Virus genome (UHGV): UHGV-0295468
Direction: 5' to 3' (one strand)
DNA length: 11,413 bases
Source of the DNA: a virus
Both the position numbers and the translations under genes were made by a program. The notes beneath the pieces were generated by a model, which made no database searches, had not been told where the DNA came from, and was given only the letters and a program-made list of their open reading frames with translations. Numbering within the stretch: position 1 is the stretch's first letter; each line of letters opens with the position of its first letter. Shown in pieces: positions 1 through 11,413 of this stretch.

Positions 1-136
1 CACCTTATGACTGGAAGCCGATCAGGGTGGTTTGTCGTAAATGGTCGGCAAGCGTGGGGGCGTTGTGGGTAACCATAACGGCAGATTTTGAACAGGTCGT
101 GGCATAGGAGGCTCTGATGCAGGATATTCCACAGGA
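1..136. repeat. Left-terminal inverted-repeat arm: exact reverse complement of 287..422; carries an inverted copy of the M 3' end (plus-strand codons 3..107, stop 108..110) and of the first 6 codons of L (117..134)
   Basis: Base-by-base comparison: position i pairs with 423-i for i=1..136 with no mismatch; the match breaks at 137 vs 286. The arm runs to the window edge, so its true length may be larger. Confidence 0.95.
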
Positions 137-306
137 TGATACTGCCGCCCCTGCCAGGTAACCGGCTCACCTTTTTCGTTCTGCTCATTACAGAAAAAAT
201 AACGTTCACCACCGACCTCTGTCAGATCGATTTCCCAGAGCACCGCCTGGGCTGACTGAGTGAGGCGTGTCGTCTCATGATGTGTTTCCTGTGGAATATC
301 CTGCAT
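22..306 (-). CDS. L: Minor tail protein L, N-terminal fragment only. About 57 codons (306..137) are L-like; the rest of the 94-codon ORF (136..22) is out-of-frame read-through into the inverted-repeat arm
   Basis: Translation MQDIPQETHHETTRLTQSAQAVLWEIDLTEVGGERYFFCNEQNEKGEPVTWQGRQY closely matches the lambda gpL N-terminus as recalled. ATG at 306..304 lies 9 nt after the M stop, preceded by GAGG. Similarity stops exactly at the 136/137 repeat junction; lambda L is about 230 aa, so this copy is truncated. Confidence 0.8.
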   Translation of the reverse strand: MQDIPQETHHETTRLTQSAQAVLWEIDLTEVGGERYFFCNEQNEKGEPVTWQGRQYHPVEYPASEPPMPRPVQNLPLWLPTTPPRLPTIYDKPP

Positions 307-422
307 CAGAGCCTCCTATGCCACGACCTGTTCAAAATCTGCCGTTATGGTTACCCACAACGCCCCCACGCTTGCCGACCATTTACGACAAACCACCCTG
401 ATCGGCTTCCAGTCATAAGGTG
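287..422. repeat. Internal partner of the left inverted repeat; this copy is contiguous with the intact M gene and the L start codon
   Basis: Reverse complement of 1..136 (136/136). It lies within genuine coding context: L start ATG at 306..304, M stop TAG at 318..316, M C-terminal codons up to 422. Confidence 0.95.
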
Positions 423-645
423 GCGTCCACTGAAATGCGCGGACGCCACCGTGCCGTTCCAGAAAGGATTTTAAAGATGGGTGTTCACATTTACGAACAC
501 GTATCGTCACGCTGTAAGTCGACAACTGGTTATTCAGTCCCGCCGCACGACGCTGTTCATAACCATCGCCCAGCTTCACTGTCACCACTTTCGGCTCTGA
601 TACCACATTCATATCCGGGCGCACTTTCCAGTGAAACGTCTCCAT
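316..645 (-). CDS. M: Minor tail protein M (109 aa)
   Basis: Same length as lambda gpM with clear similarity along the protein (METFHWKV..., WTPPYDWKPIRV..., ...FEQVVA). ATG at 645..643 overlaps the H stop TAA (647..645) by one base; correct position between H and L. Confidence 0.9.
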   Translation of the reverse strand: METFHWKVRPDMNVVSEPKVVTVKLGDGYEQRRAAGLNNQLSTYSVTIRVRKCEHPSLKSFLERHGGVRAFQWTPPYDWKPIRVVCRKWSASVGALWVTITADFEQVVA

Positions 646-3600
646 TACCGATATGCTCCACTTAACCGACCACCATCACGGGCCTGCTGTTGCATAAAGT
701 CCGCTGCCGCTTTTTTCCCAAGGTCATAAACCACCTTCAGGGCAGCAGGACCTATCTGCCCGTTCGTGCCATCGTTATTGATCTCGATGTTGTACTGCGG
801 GGCAAACATCGCCATACCTGAACCACCAATATCCGCCACAACCCCCAGCTTACCGTCAGCACCACGACGCAGTGGCAGAATGGCTTCAGGTCCAGCTTCC
901 CCCATCACACCCGCGCCTTTTGCAAAAGCAAAAAACGTCGGACGGTTAACCACCGTGCCACTGTAGCGACTCAAATCAGCCGACTGATAAACACCGCCAT
1001 CAGCATTGGCTACAAAATCAAAAGGCAGCGCGGAAGCAATGCCTTTTACCGCTTTCATTAAAGCTATCTGAGCCATGATTCTGGACATATCTGACAGCAC
1101 AGAAGAGGTGAAGGATTTGAAATTGAGTTTGCCTGTAGTACAGAATGTCGCCAGCCAGTCACTCATGCTACTGAACGCAGACGTGAACAACTGTTCCACT
1201 GTCCCGGCTGTGTTATCCGCATTCTCAGTGACATTCTGGAGTGCACGCAGGACTCCGTTTTTCCAATTACCCTGAGCAATTTCAAGCCGTTGCCAGTAAC
1301 GGCGATTCTCATTCAGTTGTCGGTTCAGACTCTCCGTCAGCGCCTGCTCGGCCTTTCTGTAGTCATCCGTGTTATATGTCCCTTTCTGCTCACTATCCCG
1401 CCTCAACTGCTCCAGCTGTTGCTGGTATTTCTGGCGAAGACTCAGTTGTACCTGATATCGCTGCCGCTGCTGATCACCCATACCCACCGTGGCGATATCC
1501 AGGTCATGTTGCTGACGCTGAGCGCGCTCTTCTTCAGCCAGTTGACTGGTCAGCTGAATTGTTTTTTTCTTCAGATCGTTGAGTGCCGTCTGTTTCTGAA
1601 GCTCCTGCTGTTTTACATCCAGCAGCGTCAGTGCCTGAATCAGTTCATCTTTACGGGCCAGCACACTCTTTTCATCTGCCGTCAGTTTTTTCCCGTCCAG
1701 ATCGCTGATGCGCTGCTGCAGAGCCAGAAGCTGTTTATGCGCTTCTGTCATCTTTTCAGTGGCAATGCCTGCTGACTGTCTTGCAGCAGCAATCTGTCCT
1801 TCCACCTGTGCCTGTTGCTGACTGTACTGCAGCAATAACCGGGTGGCCTCATCATTACGGGTTTCGCGTGTTTTTTTCTTACCGGATGCCAGGGCTTTCT
1901 CGTAACGTTCATTTTCACGTTGTATCGCCGCATCCCTGACAGCCTGATCGGCGTACTGCATGGCATTAATACGCGCAATTTCACGCTGATGTCGTGCAGC
2001 TTCCGTTTCATTCATCCGGTTCAGTGCAGCATTTTCAGCATTACGGCGTTTCTGTTGCTCCTGATAATTCCGCTCTGCCTGCTCTTTTGCATCCTGCAAA
2101 TCCTTCTGGCGTTTTTTCTCCTGAAGATCGTTAAGACGCTGCTGATCGTATTCAACCTGAGAAGATGATGCCGTCCAGGGGAGTCTTTTCGCCCGCGACA
2201 CTTTCTCCTGCAAAGTGGCAATCTGCGCATCCAGCGAATCTTCACGACCAATATTCATGGCCGCATCCCAGAACTGCTTCCACCAGTCAGACAAAGTTTG
2301 CAGCGTACTGCCCAGCGCATTGAGGTTATTATCAATATCCGCAGTACGCCGACCGGTTTCCTCTGCCAGTGCAGACATGGCTATCCGTGCCGCATCACTG
2401 GACCGCCCCTGCTCTCCAAGGACGCGTATCTGCTCAAGCTGAGTGGCAGTAAGAAAATGCAGCTCATTGTCCAGAGACTTCGCGGCATTTACAGGATCAT
2501 CCTTCAGCCGCTTAAACTGATTTATGGTATCGCTGACCGACTGGCCAACCGATCGCTCCATCTGTGCGGCAGCTCTCGCCACCATACCGATATCGTTTCC
2601 ACGAAATGCACCACTCCCCACCACCTGAGCCAGCGCACCGGCTGCAGCATGTTGCGTGATACCATTCCCGGAAATAGCACGACTGAGCGTCCACAGCTGC
2701 CCGGCAGTGACTCCGGCATAATGCCCCGTCAGCGACAGCTGGCGGTTAAATTCTTCCCCCTCCTTCTGACCGTCATACCAGGCTTTACCCAGGCCATAGA
2801 CAGCCGCGGCAATACCGCCAATAACCCCGCCAAGCATCATGCCTTTCGGTGACATCAATGTGTCTATCCACCCGGCACGGTTAGCCAGCGTTATTCCGGA
2901 TCCCCTCAGCGCACCTAAATTTCCGCGGGCCAGTTCACCTATCAGAACGCCTATCTCCTGACGGGCCGCTGCACTTTTCAGCCCCAGCGAATGCGTGGCT
3001 TTTCCTGCCTGCTCCATTTTGCGGATATACACTTCTGCAGCACTGCTTACCCCCAGCTGGGCAGCCTTGGCACGAAGCAACTCAGAAGAAGAAAGATTCT
3101 GGCGGGTTGCCTGCTCTTTAAGCTGACGGATAAACGCCACTTTCTGTCGGGTAGCCTCTTCCTCAGCCTGTGTAAGAACACGGGTTTTCGCCGTAACCTC
3201 AGAAATCAGCGCCAGATAATCCTGCTGACCAATCCCGCCACTGTTTCTGGCCTGTCGGATCTGCTGCTGAATACGCTGTAATTCCTGCAGACCCGCACTG
3301 GCCTGTTTCACACTGTCAATCTGACGATAAAACGCAGCAGCCGCTTTATCCTGAGCCTCCGCCAGAGCCATGGCCTGCGCCTGTTCCTCGCGCATTTTCT
3401 GGCTCAGCGCCTCCATACGCTGGCGGGTTTTCTCCACCTCGCGGGCCATGCGTTCATGAGCCTGTGCGTTCTTCTCCACCGTCTGCGCATGGACGGATGC
3501 GGCTGTTGCAGCCGAAGACGCCGCCTGCGTTGTCTGCCGGGCGGCCTGAGTCTGACGCTCCATAAAACGCTGCATACGGGCAGAAGACCGTTCTGCATCG

Positions 3601-3701
3601 CTGGCTGCACCATTCAGAAGGTTTTTGATACGGGGGATTTCATTTTTAAACTCTGCCGCATCAATCCCCAAATCAATGACCAGGTTGGCTATCTGGTCCA
3701 T
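645..3701 (-). CDS. H: Tail tape measure protein (gpH-like), 1018 aa from the ATG at 3701
   Basis: N-terminus MDQIANLVIDLGIDAAEF and C-terminus INNDGTNGQIGPAALKVVYD...RDGGRLSGAYR match lambda gpH termini as recalled. Long Q/A/E/R-rich coiled-coil repeats and a Gly-rich hydrophobic segment are typical of tape measure proteins. ATG at 3701..3699 is preceded by GGAGGTG with 6-nt spacing; the ORF track starts 10 codons earlier at a TTG (3731), which I consider less likely. Confidence 0.92.
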   Translation of the reverse strand: MDQIANLVIDLGIDAAEFKNEIPRIKNLLNGAASDAERSSARMQRFMERQTQAARQTTQAASSAATAASVHAQTVEKNAQAHERMAREVEKTRQRMEALSQKMREEQAQAMALAEAQDKAAAAFYRQIDSVKQASAGLQELQRIQQQIRQARNSGGIGQQDYLALISEVTAKTRVLTQAEEEATRQKVAFIRQLKEQATRQNLSSSELLRAKAAQLGVSSAAEVYIRKMEQAGKATHSLGLKSAAARQEIGVLIGELARGNLGALRGSGITLANRAGWIDTLMSPKGMMLGGVIGGIAAAVYGLGKAWYDGQKEGEEFNRQLSLTGHYAGVTAGQLWTLSRAISGNGITQHAAAGALAQVVGSGAFRGNDIGMVARAAAQMERSVGQSVSDTINQFKRLKDDPVNAAKSLDNELHFLTATQLEQIRVLGEQGRSSDAARIAMSALAEETGRRTADIDNNLNALGSTLQTLSDWWKQFWDAAMNIGREDSLDAQIATLQEKVSRAKRLPWTASSSQVEYDQQRLNDLQEKKRQKDLQDAKEQAERNYQEQQKRRNAENAALNRMNETEAARHQREIARINAMQYADQAVRDAAIQRENERYEKALASGKKKTRETRNDEATRLLLQYSQQQAQVEGQIAAARQSAGIATEKMTEAHKQLLALQQRISDLDGKKLTADEKSVLARKDELIQALTLLDVKQQELQKQTALNDLKKKTIQLTSQLAEEERAQRQQHDLDIATVGMGDQQRQRYQVQLSLRQKYQQQLEQLRRDSEQKGTYNTDDYRKAEQALTESLNRQLNENRRYWQRLEIAQGNWKNGVLRALQNVTENADNTAGTVEQLFTSAFSSMSDWLATFCTTGKLNFKSFTSSVLSDMSRIMAQIALMKAVKGIASALPFDFVANADGGVYQSADLSRYSGTVVNRPTFFAFAKGAGVMGEAGPEAILPLRRGADGKLGVVADIGGSGMAMFAPQYNIEINNDGTNGQIGPAALKVVYDLGKKAAADFMQQQARDGGRLSGAYR

Positions 3702-4035
3702 AACGCACACCTCCGGAAATACCTTCCCCAAGATGCATCAGTTCTTCGTCCGTTCGCTCCGGTATCCCGTTCTCTTCCGGTAAAAGGCTGAAATCAGCCA
3801 CCGCAGCATCACTGCTGCCGGACACCATTCTCACGATCAATGCCTTCAGCGAGGCAAACTGCGCATCCATCCACACATCACTGAAGCTCTGCATCCGGAA
3901 ATAATCGCCCCACTCACCAAGCTCAGTGGCCGACATTTCCGACAGCATCCGCCGCCAGTCTGCCCGCCGGAACTCCCGGGCAAGCCGCATGACAAACTGC
4001 ATTTCCCGCGTCAGGACTTTTCCGGCGTCAGCGCC
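3673..4035 (-). CDS. T: Tail assembly protein T segment: the -1 frame ORF overlapping the 3' end of G, probably expressed only as a G-T fusion by programmed -1 frameshifting
   Basis: The -1 frame relative to G is open from 4035 (just after an in-frame stop at 4038..4036) to the stop at 3675..3673. It overlaps the G stop and sits between G and H exactly as lambda T does. A lysine-codon slip site lies one codon before the G stop. The internal ATG at 4002 has no obvious Shine-Dalgarno sequence. Confidence 0.65.
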   Translation of the reverse strand, partial: GADAGKVLTREMQFVMRLAREFRRADWRRMLSEMSATELGEWGDYFRMQSFSDVWMDAQFASLKALIVRMVSGSSDAAVADFSLLPEENGIPERTDEELMHLGEGISGGVRYGPDSQPGH

Positions 4036-4397
4036 TCATGCTCATCATCCCCGGCATTATCAATGGCCCCCATACCGCTCAGCGACAGAACCATCTCCGC
4101 CCCCGCACCCAGGGCATCATACGACCATGTTGTAATAACGGATGCGCAAAGCGTCTCTACATCCTTAGACTGATCCGCATTCCACAGTGAGCGGGAAACC
4201 AGCCAGGCATTGATATCCATCCCCATCCGCAGAAAAGCAATCTGTCGTTCAGCCTCCGGCAGTTCTCCCTCACCGGCATCAAACTTTGCCGTTCGCTGCT
4301 GAACAAACGCCAGATATTCAATTCTCTGCAACCCGGACAGCTCACTGAGCACCACGGACTGTTTTTCATAATTAAACGTGCCCTGTTTCAGAAACAT
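4011..4397 (-). CDS. G: Tail assembly chaperone G (128 aa from the ATG at 4397)
   Basis: Translation MFLKQGTFNYEKQSVVLSELSGLQRIEYLAF... resembles lambda gpG (MFLK..., TLSELSALQRIEHLA...). GGTGGAG Shine-Dalgarno 6 nt upstream of the ATG at 4397..4395. The ORF-track start at 4439 is a TTG inside the upstream hairpin and is unlikely. Confidence 0.85.
   Translation of the reverse strand: MFLKQGTFNYEKQSVVLSELSGLQRIEYLAFVQQRTAKFDAGEGELPEAERQIAFLRMGMDINAWLVSRSLWNADQSKDVETLCASVITTWSYDALGAGAEMVLSLSGMGAIDNAGDDEHEALTPEKS
4017..4023 (-). other. Candidate -1 ribosomal frameshift site GGAAAAG (minus strand) linking G to T
   Basis: G-frame codons read CCG GAA AAG TCC TGA. An AAG-to-AAA lysine tRNA slip at 4019..4017 would enter the T frame. 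The only window where both frames are open is 4035..4014. The motif differs from lambda's GGGAAAG as recalled. Confidence 0.5.
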
Positions 4398-4413
4398 CAT
4401 GTTCTCCACCTGC

Positions 4414-4437
4414 AAAAAAGCCCCGGATAACCGGGGC
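4414..4437 (-). terminator. Intrinsic-terminator-like hairpin between V and G: 7-bp GC stem (GCCCCGG/CCGGGGC), 4-nt loop, followed on the coding strand by TTTTTT
   Basis: Plus strand 4420..4437 is gccccgg-ataa-ccggggc, preceded by A6 at 4414..4419; on the minus (coding) strand this is a stem-loop followed by a U6 tract, 20 nt after the V stop and immediately before the G ribosome-binding site. Confidence 0.55.
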
Positions 4438-4457
4438 AAATGATGAGTATCGTCCTG

Positions 4458-5201
4458 TTAACCTGCGGCGCTGACAGTCACCGCAGCCACAGCCACAAAA
4501 TTCCCGTCAGCGGTCATGCCCACAATGCTGACACTGCCCTGCTTCACGCCTTTCACCGTGGCCACAAGCCCGTTCAGGGTCACCGTGGCAGTCTGTGGAT
4601 CTGACGAATGCACACTGATCGCTTTGTCACTGGCTCCGTCAGGTTTTACTGTAAAGGTCAGCGTGGTGGTTGCTCCCACTTTTACACTGGCAGATGCCGG
4701 TGCCACCGTCAGCCCGGTAACGCTCACTGTTTCAGTGCCTTCCTCTGCCAGATACGGACGCCCCACACCGCTGATTTTCACAGTGCGGGTCATCACGTCT
4801 TTTGAGGCAATGGTTTTACCCAGTGAACTCAGCCAGCCACGGAAAACATCAACAGTACCGTTGGGATATTTGATACGAAACGCGCAGACTTCACCGGAGT
4901 CGAACAACTGAACCAGTTTTTTCTGCCCGCTGTCACCCGGACGCCAGGCCAGCGTCGCCGAAGTATCACCGACTGATTTCTGCCCCTGGGTTGTCGTTTT
5001 CCAGTCTGCATCTTCATCATCGAGATAAGTATCATCTTCTGCATCAGCGGTCATTTCGCCAGGTTGCAGATCCTTCACCATCGCAAGACGCAGCCAGTCA
5101 GTGTCCGACAAAGGGTTCGCAAATGCGTCGCCGTTGCCGGTATACATCCAGAACGTCGTCCCCGCACCTTTCGTCTTTGCCAGTGGATTTGGTGTGGTCA
5201 T
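4458..5201 (-). CDS. V: Major tail protein V with C-terminal Ig-like domain (247 aa from the ATG at 5201)
   Basis: Strong similarity to lambda gpV as recalled (KGAGTTFWMYTGNGDAFANPLSD..., DTYLDDEDADW..., YPNGTVDVFRGWLSS...). Perfect AAGGAGG Shine-Dalgarno 5 nt upstream of the ATG at 5201..5199. The C-terminal ~90 aa are Thr/Val/Ser-rich and Ig-like. The ORF-track start (GTG at 5276) would overlap U. Confidence 0.92.
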   Translation of the reverse strand: MTTPNPLAKTKGAGTTFWMYTGNGDAFANPLSDTDWLRLAMVKDLQPGEMTADAEDDTYLDDEDADWKTTTQGQKSVGDTSATLAWRPGDSGQKKLVQLFDSGEVCAFRIKYPNGTVDVFRGWLSSLGKTIASKDVMTRTVKISGVGRPYLAEEGTETVSVTGLTVAPASASVKVGATTTLTFTVKPDGASDKAISVHSSDPQTATVTLNGLVATVKGVKQGSVSIVGMTADGNFVAVAAVTVSAAG

Positions 5202-5211
5202 TGCCACCTCC

Positions 5212-5613
5212 TTAATTCGTGTACGTGATCTGGTACGTGATTTCCGCCATCGCCCAGGTGGCCATCTCATTATCACGTTGATAGTTAAAACCGAGTGGGA
5301 TCAGGGTGTCGATGAGTCCGGAAAGTGCCGGTACATCATTCAGGGCCGGGAAAATGGTGCTCTCCATCCACATATCCAGCTCTGAATCCGGTGCCTGTGC
5401 CCGGATGAAGACAGCAATATGCAGAACAGCCTGCCAGTCATCTTCATCCGTCATTTTTCCGGTGTACTGAGCATCACTCAGCCACACCGCCACGGCAGGC
5501 AGTTCCTGCGCATCAACAAATGCCGGAAGCCCGTCAAAAAACGTGGCGCTGTCTCCACACTGTTCCCGAAGGCGTGCCAGTACGACCTGGCGGATTTGTG
5601 TATGTCGGTTCAT
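5212..5613 (-). CDS. U: Tail terminator protein U (133 aa from the ATG at 5613; an alternative ATG at 5625 gives 137 aa)
   Basis: Similarity to lambda gpU (ATFFDG..., PAVAV..., YTG, DSELD.WMES, ITY.ITY). The ATG at 5613..5611 overlaps the Z stop TGA (5612..5610) in an ATGA arrangement, suggesting translational coupling. Confidence 0.88.
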   Translation of the reverse strand: MNRHTQIRQVVLARLREQCGDSATFFDGLPAFVDAQELPAVAVWLSDAQYTGKMTDEDDWQAVLHIAVFIRAQAPDSELDMWMESTIFPALNDVPALSGLIDTLIPLGFNYQRDNEMATWAMAEITYQITYTN

Positions 5614-6188
5614 CGGGTCAGCCATAACCTCAGTTGTTGTTTCAGTGCATACCCCAGCTGTTTCGGCATTTCCGCAGCAATGATGCGGTCGCGGGCATCT
5701 TCAAATGCCTGTGTCAGCGGTCCGGACAGCGGGATTTTCACCACATCAATGGGGTAACGATTTTTGCCATCAATACGCCGCATCACATGCCAGCGACCAT
5801 TCGCCAGTTGCTGAATAAACGCATCCCGGAAAAGATATTTACCCACCTTCAGCACACTGCCACGGTACTGCAGTTTTCCACCACGCCGGGCCAGTCTGAC
5901 CCGGGCTGTCCCCAGCTTAATGGCGGGAAGATTGCCCCGGTTAACGCGGATCCTGGCCGTCATTTTTCCTGACGGACTGGCTTTAAACACCCGGACACGC
6001 TGACGTACCAGTTTCAGGGGGATCCCTTTCACCTGGTTATCTCCCGCAACGGTATTCCCGGCAACCTGCCGGGTGGCAACCGAGACCGCTTTCTGTGCCA
6101 CACGGTTTATCGCCCATGCGCTGGCCTGTGGCACCATACGGGTATCAAGGCTGTTCAGATTGCGGATGGCATTCTCAAGCCCCTTCAT
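5610..6188 (-). CDS. Z: Minor tail protein Z (192 aa)
   Basis: Same length as lambda gpZ with near-collinear similarity (MKGLE..., PQASAW.INRVA, QRVRVFKA, IRVNRG.LPAIKLG, NGRWHVM.R..GKNRYPIDVVKIP, LGYAL). GAGGTG Shine-Dalgarno 5 nt upstream of the ATG at 6188..6186. Confidence 0.92.
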   Translation of the reverse strand: MKGLENAIRNLNSLDTRMVPQASAWAINRVAQKAVSVATRQVAGNTVAGDNQVKGIPLKLVRQRVRVFKASPSGKMTARIRVNRGNLPAIKLGTARVRLARRGGKLQYRGSVLKVGKYLFRDAFIQQLANGRWHVMRRIDGKNRYPIDVVKIPLSGPLTQAFEDARDRIIAAEMPKQLGYALKQQLRLWLTR

Positions 6189-6199
6189 CCCACACCTCT

Positions 6200-6775
6200 T
6201 TACTCAATAAAGATCATTGGCTTACCGTTAAAGCGTTCATGCCGTGTGACCGTCCATTGTTGTCCGTCATAAACAACGCGATCCCCGCGCCGTGGGCGGT
6301 ATCCCGAAGAAAACACCACCAGAGAGACTCTGATCCCTTTTCCCGGTTGGCAGCGCGTATGGATGCGATCACGGTCAGAAAGATGGGAAAGACAGCCTCG
6401 ATTAATGATGTCGATATGGCTGTGATCCCGGGAGAAACACTGGCAGAGCTGAATGCTCTGTCCGGACCTCGGCACTTCTTCTGCACTGGTTCCGGCATCT
6501 GCCCAGACAACCCCGACCAGCGGCTCAGAGCCGCTGTTAGTCAGCTGAACTTTTCCTGACTTCAGATAAACCTTCTTACCCGTTTTCATGTCATCCGTTT
6601 TCAGCTTAGGCAGCATAAACACACCTTCGGTTATGCCGTCGCCTGTTTCTCCCTGTGGAATATCGGTCAGCGCCACCGCAAAAACATCCCCCACCTGCAC
6701 CAGATCTCCGCTGCTGATGGCTGCACTGGCAACAATCGCCACCGTTTTTCCTTCTTCTACAAAATTCTTTGCCAT
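6200..6775 (-). CDS. Continuous 191-codon ORF: N-terminal ~115 aa resemble a gpD-like head decoration protein; C-terminal ~45 aa resemble head-tail joining protein gpFII; no stop codon between them
   Basis: ATG at 6775..6773 with GGAGA Shine-Dalgarno 5 nt upstream. N-terminal part (KTVAIVASAAISSGD..., YLKSGKVQL, VVWADAGTSAEE) resembles lambda gpD (AAVGILAVAAD, FYKSGTFRY, VLWPEAASDE). The C-terminus (GKGIRVSLVVF...RRGDRVVYDGQQWTV) resembles the lambda gpFII C-terminal region (GQGVRV...SLFV...RRGDTLTIGEENFWV). Whether this is one fused protein or two genes merged by a frameshift is unresolved. Confidence 0.55.
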   Translation of the reverse strand: MAKNFVEEGKTVAIVASAAISSGDLVQVGDVFAVALTDIPQGETGDGITEGVFMLPKLKTDDMKTGKKVYLKSGKVQLTNSGSEPLVGVVWADAGTSAEEVPRSGQSIQLCQCFSRDHSHIDIINRGCLSHLSDRDRIHTRCQPGKGIRVSLVVFSSGYRPRRGDRVVYDGQQWTVTRHERFNGKPMIFIE

Positions 6776-6818
6776 AACTGTCTCCGCACAGCCCCGTTCA
6801 GGGGCTGATTTCAGGTAC

Positions 6819-6838
6819 AAAAAAAGCCCTTACGGGCC
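6819..6838 (-). terminator. Weak terminator-like hairpin after the capsid ORF: 4-5 bp GC stem with GTAA loop followed by T7 on the coding strand
   Basis: Minus strand reads ggcccgtaagggc followed by ttttttt (plus-strand A7 at 6819..6825), 24 nt downstream of the capsid stop. The stem is short, so this is tentative. A second 5-bp GC hairpin (plus 6791..6805) sits just upstream of the next ribosome-binding site. Confidence 0.35.
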
Positions 6839-6861
6839 ATCAGAGTTGTTGTCTGCGACGT

Positions 6862-8820
6862 TTACGCCGTACATTTCACCAGGCCGCGGTGATCAACTGG
6901 CGCAACACCAGCGTCAATACGCACTTTCGTTGTCACGCCATCCACACTGAAGCCCTCCATCTGATCAATATATGGCGTATCCACACCGTTGAGATAAGCC
7001 ACTTCAATCGTATCGGAGCCTTTGGACGCAGCCAGGTAGAAGGTGGTCTGGCTGTTATCATCAAGACGAGGCTCTGCAATAACGGTCGCAAAATCTTTCA
7101 CCGGGTTAATAATACCGGCGTTAATGTCAGCCCCCTTGACACTTGAGGAGCGAATGACCTGGTTAGCAACAGACTCCATCGCCGTCGGTACCAGTACGAA
7201 CGCAGGACGAATATTCAGATGACGCTCACCCTCTTTCTGAACGCGCATCAACTGGCGGGCTTTATCCAGCGATGCCACGTCCATTGCCGCGCTCTCCAGT
7301 ACGTTTGCATGTTTCGCTTTATCGAACAGACTTACATTATCTGTGGAGATTTTCGGGTTAGACGTCAGAATGGCATAAACCAGATCGGCAATAGTGGATT
7401 TCGCCGCACGGCCCAGCTTCATCGGGACATCGGTCAGCATATTCAGATCATCATTGATAATGGCCTGACGGGTGATACTGAACAGCTCGCCATAGGTCGC
7501 CAGTGCAATAGTGGCCTGTTTATCTCCGGTGGTGACGTATTTATATTCTGCCCCTTCACGCACCTGACGCAGAGCACTGAAGCCCCCCATACCCACACGA
7601 TGGGCAATTTTAAAATCAGACAACTGACCTTTCCGCGTCCACTGTTCATAGGTTTCAGGGGCATCTTCCCAGCCCTGCAGAATGGCTTTGTTCGCAACAT
7701 CCAGCAGAATATTACCGAAGTCAGACGTACTGTGTGTGAACGCCGCACCGACCATCTGCATCGGGTTATAACTGGAAACACCAATACCACGTTCAGTCAG
7801 TGACATACGGGCATATTCACGCAGGGTCATCCCGTTGTAGACATTATCACGTTCAGTTTTTTCAAACCCGGCGCGCGCCATCAGCGCCTGGCGGATCCCG
7901 TCCCCCACAAAATTACCGTTACCGGCATAAATATGAGCCGGGGTATTTTTATTGGATGGCGTGGACTCGCGCCCCATCTCGTTCAACAGCTTTTCGCGGG
8001 CCTGCTCCAGCGAACATTCAGGATCGGCAAGACACTGAGCCTGCAACGACTGATAACGCCCGCCAAACATGGCAAACAGATCATTAATACCGTTTACACG
8101 CGCTTTTTGCTCTGCCAGGACCTGCGCACGGATGCTGTTTTCATCCACCACGGGTGCTGCTGCCTGCACTGGCGTCCGGGAGGCTGCAGGTCCATCATCC
8201 TGTACGCGTGGAGCACTGTTGCGTGGCGGAGTAATCATATTTCGAATGGATTCCGGCATCTTTTTAAATTCCTCTGTACGTTTTGACTGAATACATGCCA
8301 TTGCCTTAACGGCTGGTGTCACCTGATCAGCAAATCCCTGTGCCAGACATTCGGCACCGGACATCCAGGTCTCATCCGCCAGCATGGCAGCAATTTCATC
8401 GGTGGTTTTCCCGGTTTTCTGTGCATAAGCGGGTAACAGAACCGCCTCAACTTTATCGAGCAGGTCGGCATAGGTGCGCATGTCCTCCGCATCACCGCCC
8501 GTAAAGCCAAATGGTTTATGAATCATCATGAAGGAGTTTTCCGGCATAATGACCGGGTTTCCCACCATCGCAATGACCGACGCCATTGACGCCGCCACAC
8601 CGTCGACATAAACGGTAATGGACGCACCATGTGTTTTCAGTGCATTAAAAATGGCGATGCCTTCAAAGACATCGCCACCCGGTGAATTAATATGGAGATT
8701 AATGTGGGTGATATCGCCCAGTGCATTCAGATCACTGATAAACTGCTTCGCCGTAACACCCCAGAAACCAATCTCGTCATAAATATAAATATCCGCGTCA
8801 CTCTGGTGACCTGCCTGCAT
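6862..8820 (-). CDS. Prohead protease (ClpP/S14-like), scaffold-like linker and HK97-fold major capsid region in one 652-aa ORF
   Basis: N-terminal ~200 aa have ClpP-like features (IYIYDEIG..., INSPGGDVFEGIAIFNALK, VDGVAASMASVIAM, MIHKP). The middle is a charged Ala/Gln-rich region. The C-terminal ~330 aa look like an HK97-type capsid protein (no lambda gpE similarity). ATG at 8820..8818 lies 13 nt after the portal stop. The ORF-track extension to 9081 starts at a TTG and overlaps the portal by ~250 nt. Confidence 0.78.
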   Translation of the reverse strand: MQAGHQSDADIYIYDEIGFWGVTAKQFISDLNALGDITHINLHINSPGGDVFEGIAIFNALKTHGASITVYVDGVAASMASVIAMVGNPVIMPENSFMMIHKPFGFTGGDAEDMRTYADLLDKVEAVLLPAYAQKTGKTTDEIAAMLADETWMSGAECLAQGFADQVTPAVKAMACIQSKRTEEFKKMPESIRNMITPPRNSAPRVQDDGPAASRTPVQAAAPVVDENSIRAQVLAEQKARVNGINDLFAMFGGRYQSLQAQCLADPECSLEQAREKLLNEMGRESTPSNKNTPAHIYAGNGNFVGDGIRQALMARAGFEKTERDNVYNGMTLREYARMSLTERGIGVSSYNPMQMVGAAFTHSTSDFGNILLDVANKAILQGWEDAPETYEQWTRKGQLSDFKIAHRVGMGGFSALRQVREGAEYKYVTTGDKQATIALATYGELFSITRQAIINDDLNMLTDVPMKLGRAAKSTIADLVYAILTSNPKISTDNVSLFDKAKHANVLESAAMDVASLDKARQLMRVQKEGERHLNIRPAFVLVPTAMESVANQVIRSSSVKGADINAGIINPVKDFATVIAEPRLDDNSQTTFYLAASKGSDTIEVAYLNGVDTPYIDQMEGFSVDGVTTKVRIDAGVAPVDHRGLVKCTA

Positions 8821-8833
8821 CCTGAACCAGGAA

Positions 8834-10342
8834 TTATTCTTCGGACTGGTCGTCGGTGTGCTGCGGCTCCTGTCGTTTCGTTGCGGCACTGCTGCCTCCT
8901 TTATCACTGGCCGGATCGGTATCAAATACCAGATCCAGCTTGCGGTTTTCATCAATTTCGGCCTTGCGCCGACGTTTGACATCATCTGGATTACGACCAC
9001 CTGCACGTACCCAGTCTGATTCTGTCGCCGCTCCACCACGAATCTGAATTTTCCAGGCCTCAGCCTCCTTAACAGGGTCAATCCACGGCATCACCGGTCC
9101 GGAATACACCGCGGTATACAGTGAAGAACGATCAAGATCGCGGGGTAGCCTGATAACACCGGATGCCACAGCCTGTTTCAGCCAGGCACGATACATCGGG
9201 CGGGTGACGGCACCAATAAACCAGTCCTGCAGGATCAGGTAGCCATCAGTGGATTCAACCAGCTCCTGACGCTGGGCGCTGTAAGTGCCGTTATAGTTGC
9301 GCGCTGTACTGGAAAAACTCAGACGACTGCCCGCCGCCACGGCACGCAACTGACCATTACGAAAAGTTTCAAGATTAGGATTGGGGCGATCCGACTTCAC
9401 CATTCCGATTTCTTCGCCGGGTTTCAGATCGTCGTAAATAATGCCTGGCTGAATGGTAAGCTCGCGTTCCTTATCCTTGCTGCCATTACCATCCGGTTCA
9501 TAGCTCTGCCCGTCGCCTTTCCGGATGTACATCCCCAGAGCAGCGGCGATCCTTGCTGCAGTCAGCTCAGAATCTTCATACTCTTTCAGGGCACTGAGGC
9601 GGATCAGCACACCGGACAACAAAGACGTCCCGCGCATCTGGTGCAGACGGCGAACAAATTTAAGATGCAGCATTCGCTCTGCATCCACTTCTTTGGTTTC
9701 CATCTGCCGTCCGGATACGGGACGGCTTTTATACACCAGATATTTTTCGGGACGCCCCCAGTCATCAACAAACACGCCCTGATTCAGCCTGTTGCTCTCA
9801 TCACTGGTCATGGGAATAAAGTCCGGCTCGAGCGCCTCCAGCCAGAAATGAACACCGGCAGAAGGCGTCAGGCTGTTTATGCGCCCGGAAACCATCTGGG
9901 CAAACACCTCACCATCGCGCAGCCAGGTACGCAACATCAGACGTTCCAGCATCGGACGGGTAAACTGCCCGGTGACTTCCGGACTGACAGACCATTCACT
10001 CCATCGGGTGCGTATCTCCGCTGCCAGATCACGGGCAATGGCCCCATTGCGTAATACCGGATGTGGCTCGACAATAATCCCGTTTTTCCCCACCACCCGT
10101 TCTTCCAGCTTGTCAAATACACCAATGACCAGATCGTGGTTGTTATCAAGGTAACGGGCCTGCTCACGTAACGACACGGCCCCGTACTGGCTTAACTGGT
10201 CGGCAGTTCGGTTTTCCCGCCGGGCTTTGTGTGTCCGCGTCGTTTTTACGGCCTCATAAGCCTGGATCACCGCACGGGAACGCAGCCTTGCCGCTTTCCA
10301 TCCTGGTGAAAAAACGCCAATCACATCATCAAGAATTGCCAT
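8834..10342 (-). CDS. Portal protein (502 aa from the ATG at 10342)
   Basis: Size and position (between W/terminase and the protease-capsid gene) are typical of a portal; acidic C-terminal tail. The ATG at 10342..10340 overlaps the W stop TGA (10344..10342) in an ATGA arrangement. Assignment rests on synteny and general appearance, not on a recalled alignment. Confidence 0.8.
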   Translation of the reverse strand: MAILDDVIGVFSPGWKAARLRSRAVIQAYEAVKTTRTHKARRENRTADQLSQYGAVSLREQARYLDNNHDLVIGVFDKLEERVVGKNGIIVEPHPVLRNGAIARDLAAEIRTRWSEWSVSPEVTGQFTRPMLERLMLRTWLRDGEVFAQMVSGRINSLTPSAGVHFWLEALEPDFIPMTSDESNRLNQGVFVDDWGRPEKYLVYKSRPVSGRQMETKEVDAERMLHLKFVRRLHQMRGTSLLSGVLIRLSALKEYEDSELTAARIAAALGMYIRKGDGQSYEPDGNGSKDKERELTIQPGIIYDDLKPGEEIGMVKSDRPNPNLETFRNGQLRAVAAGSRLSFSSTARNYNGTYSAQRQELVESTDGYLILQDWFIGAVTRPMYRAWLKQAVASGVIRLPRDLDRSSLYTAVYSGPVMPWIDPVKEAEAWKIQIRGGAATESDWVRAGGRNPDDVKRRRKAEIDENRKLDLVFDTDPASDKGGSSAATKRQEPQHTDDQSEE

Positions 10343-10554
10343 CAGAACCTCGCAAGCCGGTACCCGGGATGCCCCCGTCGTCGTGTAATCAGAGCCGCAA
10401 GGCGGCGCTCCCACTCCTGCCGTCCCTGCCGGATCTCAGATAAGTTTTCCATGGTCATCTGCTGACCATTAAAGGTGACGGATTTTCCGTCCAGCACCGC
10501 CATTTCAGCTTCCGTATAACGCTGAATCATGGCTTCGATATCATTCTGGTTCAT
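10342..10554 (-). CDS. W: Head-tail joining protein, gpW-like (70 aa from the ATG at 10554)
   Basis: Small protein directly after the terminase gene with a C-terminal RRRGHPGY motif resembling lambda gpW (RRRGPAGF). The ATG at 10554..10552 overlaps the terminase stop TGA (10553..10551); GGAGG lies 6 nt upstream. The track ATG at 10560 has no spacer after the Shine-Dalgarno sequence. Confidence 0.7.
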   Translation of the reverse strand: MNQNDIEAMIQRYTEAEMAVLDGKSVTFNGQQMTMENLSEIRQGRQEWERRLAALITRRRGHPGYRLARF

Positions 10555-11330
10555 AACCATCCTCCGGAAGTCAGCCAGGGGTTAACATCGTCAGTTACTG
10601 TTTTCTTCCGTTTTTGTTTTTTAACAGGCGTGGATACCGGTTCCGGTGTGGGTGACGGTTCGGTACTGTCCGGGACACACTCCAGCCAGGTTTCCCGGCT
10701 CGCCCACTCCGGTGCATCCGGCCAGCGGATCTTTTCGTATCCATGCAGAATGACCAGAGCCTCGGCATACACCATCAGGTCAAAAGCTTCGTTGGCACCG
10801 CGACCCGGCTTACTCCATTTCCCGTCACTGCTCCGCTCTTCATACGTCAGTTCGTCGTAAAACCAGCTCCCCAGCCAGTCAGGGAAATGCACATAGCCGG
10901 GACCTGGCGAGTCACGCCATAACGCGTTATTCACCCGGTCTTTCAGGGCATCCGTCTGAAGAAGCCAGAGCGGTACATCACCTGCGGCCTGCGCCCGTCG
11001 GCCCGTTCGTCCGGTGTTATCAGGGAATGTACGGGTGATCAGTTTTGCGCGCCGGATGCTGTCGCCCTTAAACAGGTAAATACGTTTACCAAGGCCATCA
11101 CGACGGCAACGACGCCAGAATTTATAGGCATTATCAGTGACCCCGTCTTCACCGCCGGAGTCCACCGCCATTGCCATCAGTCGCATTTGTTGAGAAGGAT
11201 CGGAGGCCAGCGGCCAGCTTTTATGAAAAACATCCGTCAGCAGGACATCCCAGTCTTCCGGATAGCTGGCCGGATCAATTCGCTGGCTCTCCCCGATGGC
11301 GGTGGACTCCGGCGGTGAAGACGGGGTCAC
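10551..11330 (-). CDS. A: Terminase large subunit, C-terminal fragment only (about 248 codons, 11294..10551); the codons above 11295 are read-through into the right inverted-repeat arm and the N-terminal ATPase part is absent
   Basis: Position immediately upstream of W and portal with ATGA coupling to W; globular, Trp/Asp-rich sequence typical of a terminase nuclease domain. The ORF-track start is a GTG inside the inverted-repeat arm. Assignment is by synteny and general appearance; not verified by search. Confidence 0.7.
   Translation of the reverse strand: MTPSSPPESTAIGESQRIDPASYPEDWDVLLTDVFHKSWPLASDPSQQMRLMAMAVDSGGEDGVTDNAYKFWRRCRRDGLGKRIYLFKGDSIRRAKLITRTFPDNTGRTGRRAQAAGDVPLWLLQTDALKDRVNNALWRDSPGPGYVHFPDWLGSWFYDELTYEERSSDGKWSKPGRGANEAFDLMVYAEALVILHGYEKIRWPDAPEWASRETWLECVPDSTEPSPTPEPVSTPVKKQKRKKTVTDDVNPWLTSGGWL
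11054..11171. repeat. Internal partner of the right inverted repeat, inside the terminase coding sequence
   Basis: Exact reverse complement of 11296..11413 (118/118); position i pairs with 22467-i; the match breaks at 11172 vs 11295. Confidence 0.95.
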
Positions 11331-11413
11331 TGATAATGCCTATAAATTCTGGCGTCGTTGCCGTCGTGATGGCCTTGGTAAACGTATTTACCTGTTTAAG
11401 GGCGACAGCATCC
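11296..11413. repeat. Right-terminal inverted-repeat arm: exact reverse complement of 11054..11171, running to the window edge
   Basis: Base-by-base comparison with no mismatch over 118 bp, separated from its partner by a 124-bp unique spacer (11172..11295). The arm reaches the last base of the window, so the true length is unknown. Confidence 0.95.

What the first reader, a model, noticed from the sequence alone, without database searches (positions are those of the whole stretch)
6200..6775. gpD-like decoration and gpFII-like head-tail joining parts share one ORF with no stop between them
The N-terminal ~115 aa resemble lambda decoration protein D and the last ~45 aa resemble the C-terminus of gpFII, yet the frame is continuous for 191 codons. 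There is no in-frame ATG for an independent FII-like gene (only a GTG at 6475 without a Shine-Dalgarno sequence), and the ~45 residues between the two parts are Cys/His-rich and look unlike either family. Either this is a genuine fusion, or a one-base indel has merged two adjacent genes. No gpFI homologue is present between capsid and Z.
Basis: partly seen in the sequence, partly recalled or inferred. Interest (0 to 1): 0.5.

Follow-up and report, generated by a model that had tools for sequence, protein, structure and literature searches.

The report
Two phage genes merged by inversion
The apparent fusion of a phage head-decoration gene and a head-tail connector gene comes from a 141-base stretch lying back to front in this one sequence, most likely a sequencing or assembly error, so it is not a new protein.

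Summary
The 191-codon ORF (minus strand, 6200..6775) exists as described, but it is not a natural fusion and not a one-base indel. Window 6329-6469 (141 nt) is the reverse complement of what about 1,800 E. coli prophages and 16 phages (mEp460/cdtI group) carry there. Another 3 + 13 nt are missing at the two breakpoints.

- **aa 1-102:** a DUF2190/Phage_cement_2 decoration protein lacking its last 5 residues. It is not in the lambda gpD family.
- **aa 103-149:** the "Cys/His-rich linker". It is an antisense read-through of codons 2-48 of the neighbouring gene.
- **aa 150-191:** residues 50-91 of a 91-aa Gifsy-2-family (PF13856) protein that sits where lambda has FII.

Un-inverting the segment and restoring the 16 nt reproduces a sister genome exactly, with two overlapping genes of 107 and 91 aa. 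That sister genome is 100% identical over the other 11,018 collinear bases. Neither the junctions nor the fused protein occur in any collection searched.

Both ends of the window are also perfect fold-backs (1-136 and 11296-11413). Their strand-switch jumps (150 and 124 nt) are on the same scale as the inner ones (144 and 154 nt). None of the four junctions has microhomology.

Most likely this is a library or assembly fold-back artefact (about 0.8). Otherwise it is a private disabling mutation. Interest is low.

The parts
6470..6775 (-). Codons 1-102 of the DUF2190/Phage_cement_2 head decoration gene. It is truncated: the last 5 codons (VKLNV) and the stop codon are missing.
   Evidence: PF09956 at 1.6e-19 over aa 7-101; phrog_122 'head decoration' at 2e-43. 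Collinear with, and 100% identical to, sister genome L130.
6329..6469 (+). Inverted 141-nt segment. On the plus strand it encodes codons 2-48 of the 91-aa Gifsy-2-family (FII-position) gene. Read on the minus strand it gives the 47-aa Cys/His-rich 'linker' (aa 103-149 of the fused ORF).
   Evidence: It is the reverse complement of reference segments at 97.9-100% identity. The plus-strand ORF hits PF13856 profile positions 4-45. tblastn maps aa 103-149 to the opposite strand of L130 with 46/47 identical. The linker hits no Pfam family.
6200..6328 (-). Codons 50-91 plus the stop codon of the Gifsy-2-family (FII-position) gene, in its native orientation.
   Evidence: PF13856 profile 51-97/99 at 6.6e-9; phrog_153 positions 44-91/91. 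Collinear with the references.
6328..6329 (.). Breakpoint J1, a strand switch. The reference bases CGC (codon 49, Ala) are missing here. No microhomology.
   Evidence: Base-level alignment. The 24-mer spanning this junction is absent from the viral, genome and metagenome collections.
6469..6470 (.). Breakpoint J2, a strand switch. The reference bases CATTGAGTTTTAC are missing here; they hold the ATG of the FII-position gene and the end of DUF2190. No microhomology.
   Evidence: Base-level alignment. The 24-mer spanning this junction is absent from three collections. The normal junction is present in at least 120 viral contigs.
1..136 (.). Left terminal fold-back: the exact reverse complement of window 287-422, with 150 nt between the arms. 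It is not part of the prophage sequence. It creates a second chimeric ORF, 22..306(-).
   Evidence: references match only 137-11295
11296..11413 (.). Right terminal fold-back: the exact reverse complement of window 11054-11171, with 124 nt between the arms.
5610..6188 (-). Downstream neighbour: an intact Z-like minor tail gene, 50% identical to lambda Z. It fixes the fused ORF's C-terminal part at the FII position.
6862..8889 (-). Upstream neighbour: a ClpP-like prohead protease/major capsid fusion gene (675 aa). This is a natural fusion found in all relatives.

Best explanation
The window is an ordinary head-tail morphogenesis module of an mEp460/cdtI-like lambdoid E. coli prophage. Its gene order is terminase, portal, protease-capsid, DUF2190 decoration, Gifsy-2-family FII-position connector, Z, U, V, G/T, tape measure, M, L.

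In this one sequence, 157 nt spanning the junction of the decoration gene and the connector gene have been replaced by the reverse complement of their inner 141 nt. This has four consequences:
1. The decoration gene loses its last 5 codons and its stop.
2. The connector gene loses its start codon.
3. Codons 2-48 of the connector gene now lie on the wrong strand.
4. Because 16 nt were lost and the antisense frame happens to be open, translation from the decoration gene's ATG runs through 47 antisense codons into codons 50-91 of the connector gene. This gives the 191-codon ORF.

**Shown:** the anatomy, its uniqueness to this sequence, and the exact restoration of two genes when the segment is un-inverted.

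**Inferred:** the cause. It is most likely not biological. The likely origin is a fold-back (strand-switch) chimera made during library preparation or amplification, or in the assembler, and carried into the contig. The same contig has two more fold-back junctions of the same size class at its two ends.
For: **1. Structure.**
- Window 6000-6328 and 6470-7000 are collinear with the references.
- Window 6329-6469 is the reverse complement of the reference.
- 3 + 13 reference bases are absent.

**2. Restoration.** Un-inverting the segment and adding the 16 nt reproduces sister genome L130 with one natural SNP. It yields the 107-aa PF09956 protein and the 91-aa full-length PF13856 protein.

**3. 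No divergence.** L130 (GCA_964037715.1) has 0 mismatches and 0 gaps over 6192 + 4826 collinear nt.

**4. Uniqueness.**
- None of 1859 E. coli records or 16 phages covers more than 86% of the query in one place.
- Both junction 24-mers are absent from the viral, genome and metagenome collections, while the normal junction occurs in at least 120 viral contigs.
- The fused product is not on record among 153 billion gene positions.
- No protein among 5.8 billion clusters covers more than 60% of the ORF or shares the linker.
- All 20 places shown for loci that encode the identical tape-measure protein (10) or the identical Z protein (10) have the 107 + 91 aa pair.

**5. The contig is fold-back prone.**
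- Window 1-136 is the reverse complement of 287-422, and 11296-11413 is the reverse complement of 11054-11171, both at 100%.
- Relatives continue collinearly beyond both points.
- The four strand-switch jumps are 150, 144, 154 and 124 nt, so they share one scale.
- All three anomalies are at most 141 nt long.
- The window has no repeated canonical k-mer for k>=137. That fits a simple path in a large-k de Bruijn graph.

**6. No in-vivo route is evident.**
- None of the four junctions has microhomology.
- The reference has no flanking inverted repeats at the breakpoints.
- From general knowledge, E. coli has no classical blunt end-joining.

**7. The open frame needs no selection.** Two of the three antisense frames are open. 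About 8% of simulated inversion-plus-small-loss events in this region give one continuous ORF.

**8. Published precedent.** Fold-back or inverted chimeric reads are a documented artefact of library preparation (abstracts of PMC10908179, PMC13141652, PMC12870357).
Against: - No reads are available, so the artefact is inferred and not seen.
- An internal inversion needs two chimeric junctions to win over the true path. That is harder to produce than a terminal tip extension.
- All four inner breakpoints fall on codon boundaries (inverted piece = codons 2-48, lost CGC = codon 49). The chance of this is only about 1 in 27 even after conditioning on an in-frame result. It is unexplained.
- Published fold-back artefact models mostly invoke short inverted microhomology, and none is found here.
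- The source contig could not be located in any collection, so the assembler and library type are unknown.
Confidence: 0.8

Rival explanations
1. The inversion-deletion is a real, very recent private mutation in the prophage of one isolate or population. It inactivates the FII-position connector gene and truncates the decoration gene. The prophage would then be unable to join heads to tails. The fused ORF would be a non-functional by-product.
For: - Prophage structural genes are often under relaxed selection. Many singleton, disrupted versions of this gene pair exist in draft assemblies, though these may themselves be artefacts.
- The inner anomaly has two clean junctions and lies inside an otherwise perfect 11-kb assembly.
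- The codon-aligned breakpoints are not predicted by the artefact model either.
Against: - There are no substitutions relative to a sister genome over 11,018 nt, and the arrangement occurs nowhere else.
- The junctions are blunt, with no microhomology and no flanking inverted repeats. This does not fit the known E. coli routes to inversion (recombination between inverted repeats, or template switching).
- The same contig carries two fold-backs of the same scale that cannot be genomic.
Confidence: 0.15
2. It is a genuine, functional decoration-connector fusion protein with a Cys/His-rich (metal-binding?) linker.
For: The frame is open for 191 codons behind a Shine-Dalgarno-like GGAG and an ATG. 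The linker has 4 Cys and 4 His.
Against: - The linker is the antisense translation of connector-gene codons 2-48 and matches no family.
- The connector domain lacks its N-terminal half: only profile 51-97/99 is present.
- No homologue with this architecture or linker exists among 5.8 billion protein clusters.
- About 8% of random events of this kind leave the frame open.
Confidence: 0.01
3. A one-base indel (homopolymer error) merged the two genes.
For: In relatives the two genes overlap by 8 nt in different frames, so a small indel could in principle fuse them. One Logan singleton (P0003) does look like such a frameshift.
Against: Base-level alignment of the window shows a 141-nt reverse-complemented block and a 16-nt net loss. 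There is no indel in collinear sequence: 0 gaps in 11,018 nt.
Confidence: 0
4. It is a programmed invertible DNA segment (a site-specific invertase switch), caught in the alternative orientation.
For: A segment is inverted relative to all relatives.
Against: - The breakpoints have no inverted-repeat crossover sites.
- The inversion is inexact: 16 nt are lost.
- The alternative orientation is absent from about 1,800 E. coli genomes and at least 120 viral contigs.
- The inverted state destroys two genes.
Confidence: 0

Closest known systems
Head-tail module of mEp460/cdtI-like lambdoid E. coli prophages (for example NC_019716 genes gp06 'head decoration' and gp07 'minor tail protein'; RefSeq WP_001097041.1 DUF2190 and WP_001283153.1)
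   Same: DNA identity is 98.6-100% over the collinear parts. The gene order and all neighbouring genes are the same.
   Different: In all of them the two genes are separate (107 aa and 91 aa, overlapping by 8 nt). In the window, 141 nt are inverted and 16 nt are missing.
Fold-back / inverted chimeric artefacts of sequencing libraries and assemblies (abstracts of PMC10908179, PMC13141652, PMC12870357; from general knowledge, also the inverted chimeras of multiple displacement amplification)
   Same: The junctions are strand switches that join positions only 124-154 nt apart on opposite strands. There are several in one contig, including both ends, and no other genome supports them.
   Different: The published models usually involve short inverted microhomology, and none is present here. 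The inner event needs two junctions. No reads are available to confirm it.
Phage lambda D (decoration) and FII (head-tail joining) genes
   Same: The roles inferred from position are the same. A small capsid decoration/cement gene and a small connector gene lie between the capsid gene and Z, and Z is 50% identical to lambda Z.
   Different: The families differ. The decoration protein is PF09956, not the gpD family. The connector is PF13856 (2PP6-like) and matches the FII family PF05354 only below threshold. The gene order also differs: here the decoration gene follows the capsid gene, and there is no FI.

Membership tests
Lambda gpD head-decoration family | Significant match to the gpD family profile or to lambda D itself | tested here: not met
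   No gpD-family model appears among the Pfam hits at E<=1. BLASTP of the intact 107-aa protein against lambda D gives E 0.78.
Phage_cement_2 / DUF2190 (PF09956) | Score above the Pfam gathering cut-off over most of the profile | tested here: met
   70.6 bits against a cut-off of 24, profile 2-99/103, in the fused ORF. The restored 107-aa protein scores 73.1 bits over profile 1-103/103. phrog_122 'head decoration' hits at 2e-43.
Gifsy-2 family (PF13856; structure 2PP6) | A complete domain on one strand and in one frame | tested here: not met
   The fused ORF covers only profile 51-97/99. Profile 4-45 is encoded on the opposite strand. The restored 91-aa protein covers 1-97/99 at 1.9e-17 and matches 2PP6 at 1e-19.
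Lambda FII head-tail attachment family (PF05354) | Score above the Pfam gathering cut-off (26 bits) | tested here: not met
   18.3-18.4 bits, E 0.0034-0.0036. BLASTP against lambda FII gives E 5.2. The position before Z fits an FII-like role, but membership is not shown.
Natural gene fusion | The same uninterrupted ORF, with a conserved linker, in independent related genomes | tested here: not met
   0 of 1859 E. coli records and 0 of 16 phages have it. No protein covers more than 60% of the ORF, and none shares the linker. The exact product is not on record.
Site-specific invertible segment | Inverted-repeat crossover sites at both ends, an exact inversion, and both orientations present in the population | tested here: not met
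   No inverted repeats at the breakpoints. 16 nt are lost. Only one orientation is found elsewhere.
Fold-back chimeric artefact | Strand-switch junctions between nearby positions, unsupported by any other genome and recurring in the same contig | tested here: met
   There are four junctions with jumps of 150, 144, 154 and 124 nt, two of them at the contig ends. They are absent elsewhere.
Fold-back chimeric artefact | At read level, the junctions are supported only by chimeric or duplicate fragments, and the reference junctions are supported by normal pairs | not testable with these tools
   No reads are available, and the source contig was not found in the collections.

The most novel reading that the evidence does not exclude
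The inversion is real in one E. coli strain: a blunt inversion-deletion with no microhomology inside a prophage. It would create a de novo chimeric ORF whose 47-residue linker comes from the antisense strand of a structural gene. It would also point to an end-joining-like repair route in a bacterium thought to lack one.
Probability: 0.12. Interest if true: 0.2.

Novelty: not a real feature. Interest (0 to 1): 0.05.

Why it matters
Its main value is as a caution. A plausible-looking "domain fusion with a Cys/His-rich linker" can be produced by a small inversion in a draft contig. The give-away is that the missing half of the second domain is encoded on the opposite strand. Comparison with a 100%-identical sister genome and a look at the contig ends were enough to settle it. 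If the inversion were real, it would only be a private disabling lesion in a very common prophage. Nothing here changes what is known about phage decoration or connector proteins.

Tried and rejected
- **Indel or homopolymer explanation.** Rejected. There are 0 gaps in 11,018 collinear nt, and the lesion is an inversion.
- **Search for the same architecture elsewhere.** I searched E. coli complete genomes, phage records, exact junction 24-mers in three contig collections, an exact-product look-up (the 191-aa and the 206-aa versions) and a 5.8-billion-cluster protein search. All were negative.
- **Locating the source contig.** I tried the chimeric ORF made by the left fold-back (22..306). It is not on record, so the source, assembler and library type remain unknown.
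- **Flanking inverted repeats or microhomology that could mediate a real inversion or a template switch.** None found.
- **Logan preprint (PMC12424806).** I checked it for any statement on mate concatenation or palindromic contigs. There is none, so the idea that R1+R2 concatenation caused the junctions remains speculation.
- **Other singleton DUF2190 "fusions" in draft assemblies.** I tested whether they are fold-backs too. They are same-strand joins to other genes of the prophage, which is a different kind of chimera.
- **Literature search on DUF2190.** It gave nothing specific.
- **Structure prediction.** Not run. The sequence evidence already decides the question.

Full report
**Observation**

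- Pfam places aa 7-101 in PF09956 (Phage_cement_2, formerly DUF2190; 1.6e-19).
- Pfam places aa 143-188 in PF13856 (Gifsy-2 family; 6.6e-9), but only over profile positions 51-97 of 99.
- The lambda FII family PF05354 is matched only below threshold: 18.3 bits against a cut-off of 26.
- No gpD-family model is matched.
- PHROGs agrees: phrog_122 'head decoration' over aa 1-102, and phrog_153 over aa 144-191, which is the second half of that profile.
- The 47 residues in between match nothing.

So the ORF is real and has two parts. BLASTP of the intact proteins against lambda D and lambda FII gives E 0.78 and 5.2, while the adjacent Z protein is 50% identical to lambda Z.

**What is really there**

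The missing first half of the Gifsy-2-family domain is encoded on the opposite strand. The plus-strand ORF 6095..6559 reads '...MDAITVRKMGKTASINDVDMAVIPGETLAELNALSGP...' and hits PF13856 profile positions 4-45.

I compared the window with an E. coli prophage (L001), phage mEp460 (L002) and the closest complete genome (L003). This gave three blocks:

| Window | Relation to the reference |
|---|---|
| up to 6328 | collinear |
| 6329-6469 (141 nt) | reverse complement |
| 6470 onward | collinear |

Three reference bases (CGC) are absent at the first breakpoint and 13 (CATTGAGTTTTAC) at the second.

In every reference there are two genes: a 107-aa DUF2190 'head decoration' gene and a 91-aa gene. 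The 91-aa gene is annotated variously as minor tail protein, head closure Hc1 or 'DNA breaking-rejoining protein'. It overlaps the first gene by 8 nt, and Z follows it.

The fused ORF therefore has three pieces:
- **aa 1-102:** the decoration protein without its last five residues.
- **aa 103-149:** the antisense translation of codons 2-48 of the 91-aa gene. tblastn maps them to the opposite strand of a sister genome with 46/47 identical.
- **aa 150-191:** residues 50-91 of the 91-aa protein.

Un-inverting the 141 nt and restoring the 16 nt reproduces sister genome L130 with a single natural SNP. It also yields both intact genes. The restored 91-aa protein is a full-length PF13856 member (1.9e-17, profile 1-97/99). 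It is a clear homologue of the Gifsy-2 prophage protein of PDB entry 2PP6 (1e-19).

**Uniqueness**

- Of 1859 E. coli records and 16 phage records with a match, none covers more than 86% of a 1-kb query in one place. Each has the inverted piece as a second place.
- The 24-mers that span either new junction occur in no contig of the viral, species-representative genome or metagenome collections. The normal junction occurs in at least 120 viral contigs.
- The fused product is not on record among 153 billion gene positions.
- In a search of 5.8 billion protein clusters, no hit covers more than 60% of the ORF and none shares the linker. The standard 107-aa form alone is a cluster of 1321 sequences.
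- The identical tape-measure protein is indexed in 1073 blocks, and the identical Z protein in 22,106 blocks. All 20 places shown have the 107 + 91 aa pair.
- One of these genomes, L130 (GCA_964037715.1), has 0 mismatches and 0 gaps against the window over 6192 + 4826 collinear nt.

The rearrangement therefore has no evolutionary depth at all.

**The rest of the window**

Both ends are perfect fold-backs. Window 1-136 is the reverse complement of 287-422, and 11296-11413 is the reverse complement of 11054-11171. Relatives match only 137-11295 and continue collinearly beyond both points.

The window thus holds four strand-switch junctions, with jumps of 150, 144, 154 and 124 nt. The misoriented pieces are 136, 141 and 118 nt long. 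None of the four junctions has even one base of microhomology. The reference has no inverted repeats at the inner breakpoints. The window contains no repeated canonical k-mer for k>=137, so it could be a simple path in a de Bruijn graph with a very large k. From my own knowledge, 141 is the default largest k of MEGAHIT and equals the length of the inverted piece. I record this as a coincidence that might be a lead, not as evidence.

**Interpretation**

The terminal fold-backs cannot be genome structure. They show that this data set or assembler produces strand-switch joins at a scale of about 120-155 nt. The inner inversion is two more joins of the same kind and scale.

The other observations point the same way:
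- The junctions are blunt and free of homology.
- There is no divergence from a sister genome.
- The arrangement is absent from every other sample.
- There is no plausible in-vivo route. E. coli inversions normally need inverted repeats or microhomology-primed template switching (general knowledge).

The most likely cause is an artefact of library preparation, amplification or assembly (confidence about 0.8). Fold-back or inverted chimeric reads are a documented class of artefact (abstracts of PMC10908179, PMC13141652, PMC12870357).

The exact mechanism stays unknown. Candidates are snap-back synthesis, chimeric ligation, mates joined head to tail, or a graph traversal error. The source contig could not be found, and the Logan preprint says nothing relevant.

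The main rival is a real but private disabling mutation of one prophage (about 0.15). A functional fusion protein is effectively excluded.

The open frame needs no selective explanation. Two of the three antisense frames are open through the segment. About 8% of simulated inversion-plus-small-loss events in this region give a continuous ORF.

One detail remains unexplained. All four inner breakpoints fall on codon boundaries: the inverted piece is exactly codons 2-48, and the lost CGC is exactly codon 49. The terminal junctions are not codon-aligned.

**Consequences if it were real**

The decoration domain might still fold, since 102 of 107 residues are present, but it would carry an 89-residue junk tail. 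The connector would be non-functional, so heads could not be joined to tails. Z and the downstream genes are untouched.

**Verdict**

The feature is not a real biological novelty. Interest is low.

Noticed in passing
window 1-136 / 287-422 and 11296-11413 / 11054-11171: Both ends of the window are perfect fold-backs (136 and 118 nt arms, with 150 and 124 nt between the arms). Relatives match only 137-11295. The window therefore looks like a whole contig with chimeric tips.
   Followed up: yes
window 22..306 (-) and 267..401 (+): The left fold-back creates another false chimeric ORF: the first 56 residues of the gpL-like minor tail protein run into an antisense-derived tail (VEYPASEPPMPRPVQ...). 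The same peptide appears in ORFs on both strands. It is not on record in the gene index.
   Followed up: partly
window 6328-6332 and 6469-6472: All four inner breakpoints are codon-aligned. The inverted piece is exactly codons 2-48 of the 91-aa gene, the lost CGC is codon 49, and the right flank starts at a codon boundary of the decoration gene. The chance is roughly 1 in 27 after conditioning on an in-frame result. This is unexplained.
   Followed up: partly
window 6329-6469: The inverted piece is 141 nt, the other two misoriented pieces are shorter (136 and 118 nt), and the window has no repeated canonical k-mer at k>=137. From my own knowledge, 141 is the default largest k of the MEGAHIT assembler. 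This is a possible clue to how the artefact arose.
   Followed up: partly
proteins P0034-P0038 (Logan contigs), mapped on L130 near 7144: Five singleton proteins from draft assemblies all break the DUF2190 gene right after '...KSGKVQL'. They continue in frame and on the same strand into different genes of the same prophage (Lom, the tape-measure C-terminus, U, G, Z). This is a recurrent breakpoint of unknown cause, perhaps a graph artefact or deletion variants.
   Followed up: partly
protein P0001 (ENA contig of 1853 nt): This is an independent singleton in which DUF2190 (to about residue 94) is joined directly, on the same strand, to the last ~25 residues of the Gifsy-2-family protein (117 aa in all). 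It is a deletion-type join, not an inversion.
   Followed up: partly
window 6862..8889 (-): The ClpP-like prohead protease and the major capsid protein are encoded as one 675-aa gene that overlaps the portal gene's end. This fusion is genuine, conserved in all relatives and already annotated.
   Followed up: no
window 6790-6840: Two hairpins lie between the capsid gene and the decoration gene. One is followed by a T-run on the coding strand and is annotated as a rho-independent terminator in mEp460. The second sits just upstream of the decoration gene's ribosome-binding site. They may modulate expression of the decoration gene.
   Followed up: no
window 3673..4397 (-): This is a G/T-type pair of tail assembly chaperone genes (PF06894 and PF06223) in the arrangement where lambda uses a programmed -1 frameshift. 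I did not look for the slippery site.
   Followed up: no
RefSeq annotation of the 91-aa gene (L001 1701..1976, L003 7064..7339): RefSeq names this PF13856 protein 'DNA breaking-rejoining protein', and Pfam calls the family 'ATP-binding sugar transporter from pro-phage'. Its position before Z and its weak FII-family similarity suggest a head-tail connector instead. The public names look misleading.
   Followed up: partly
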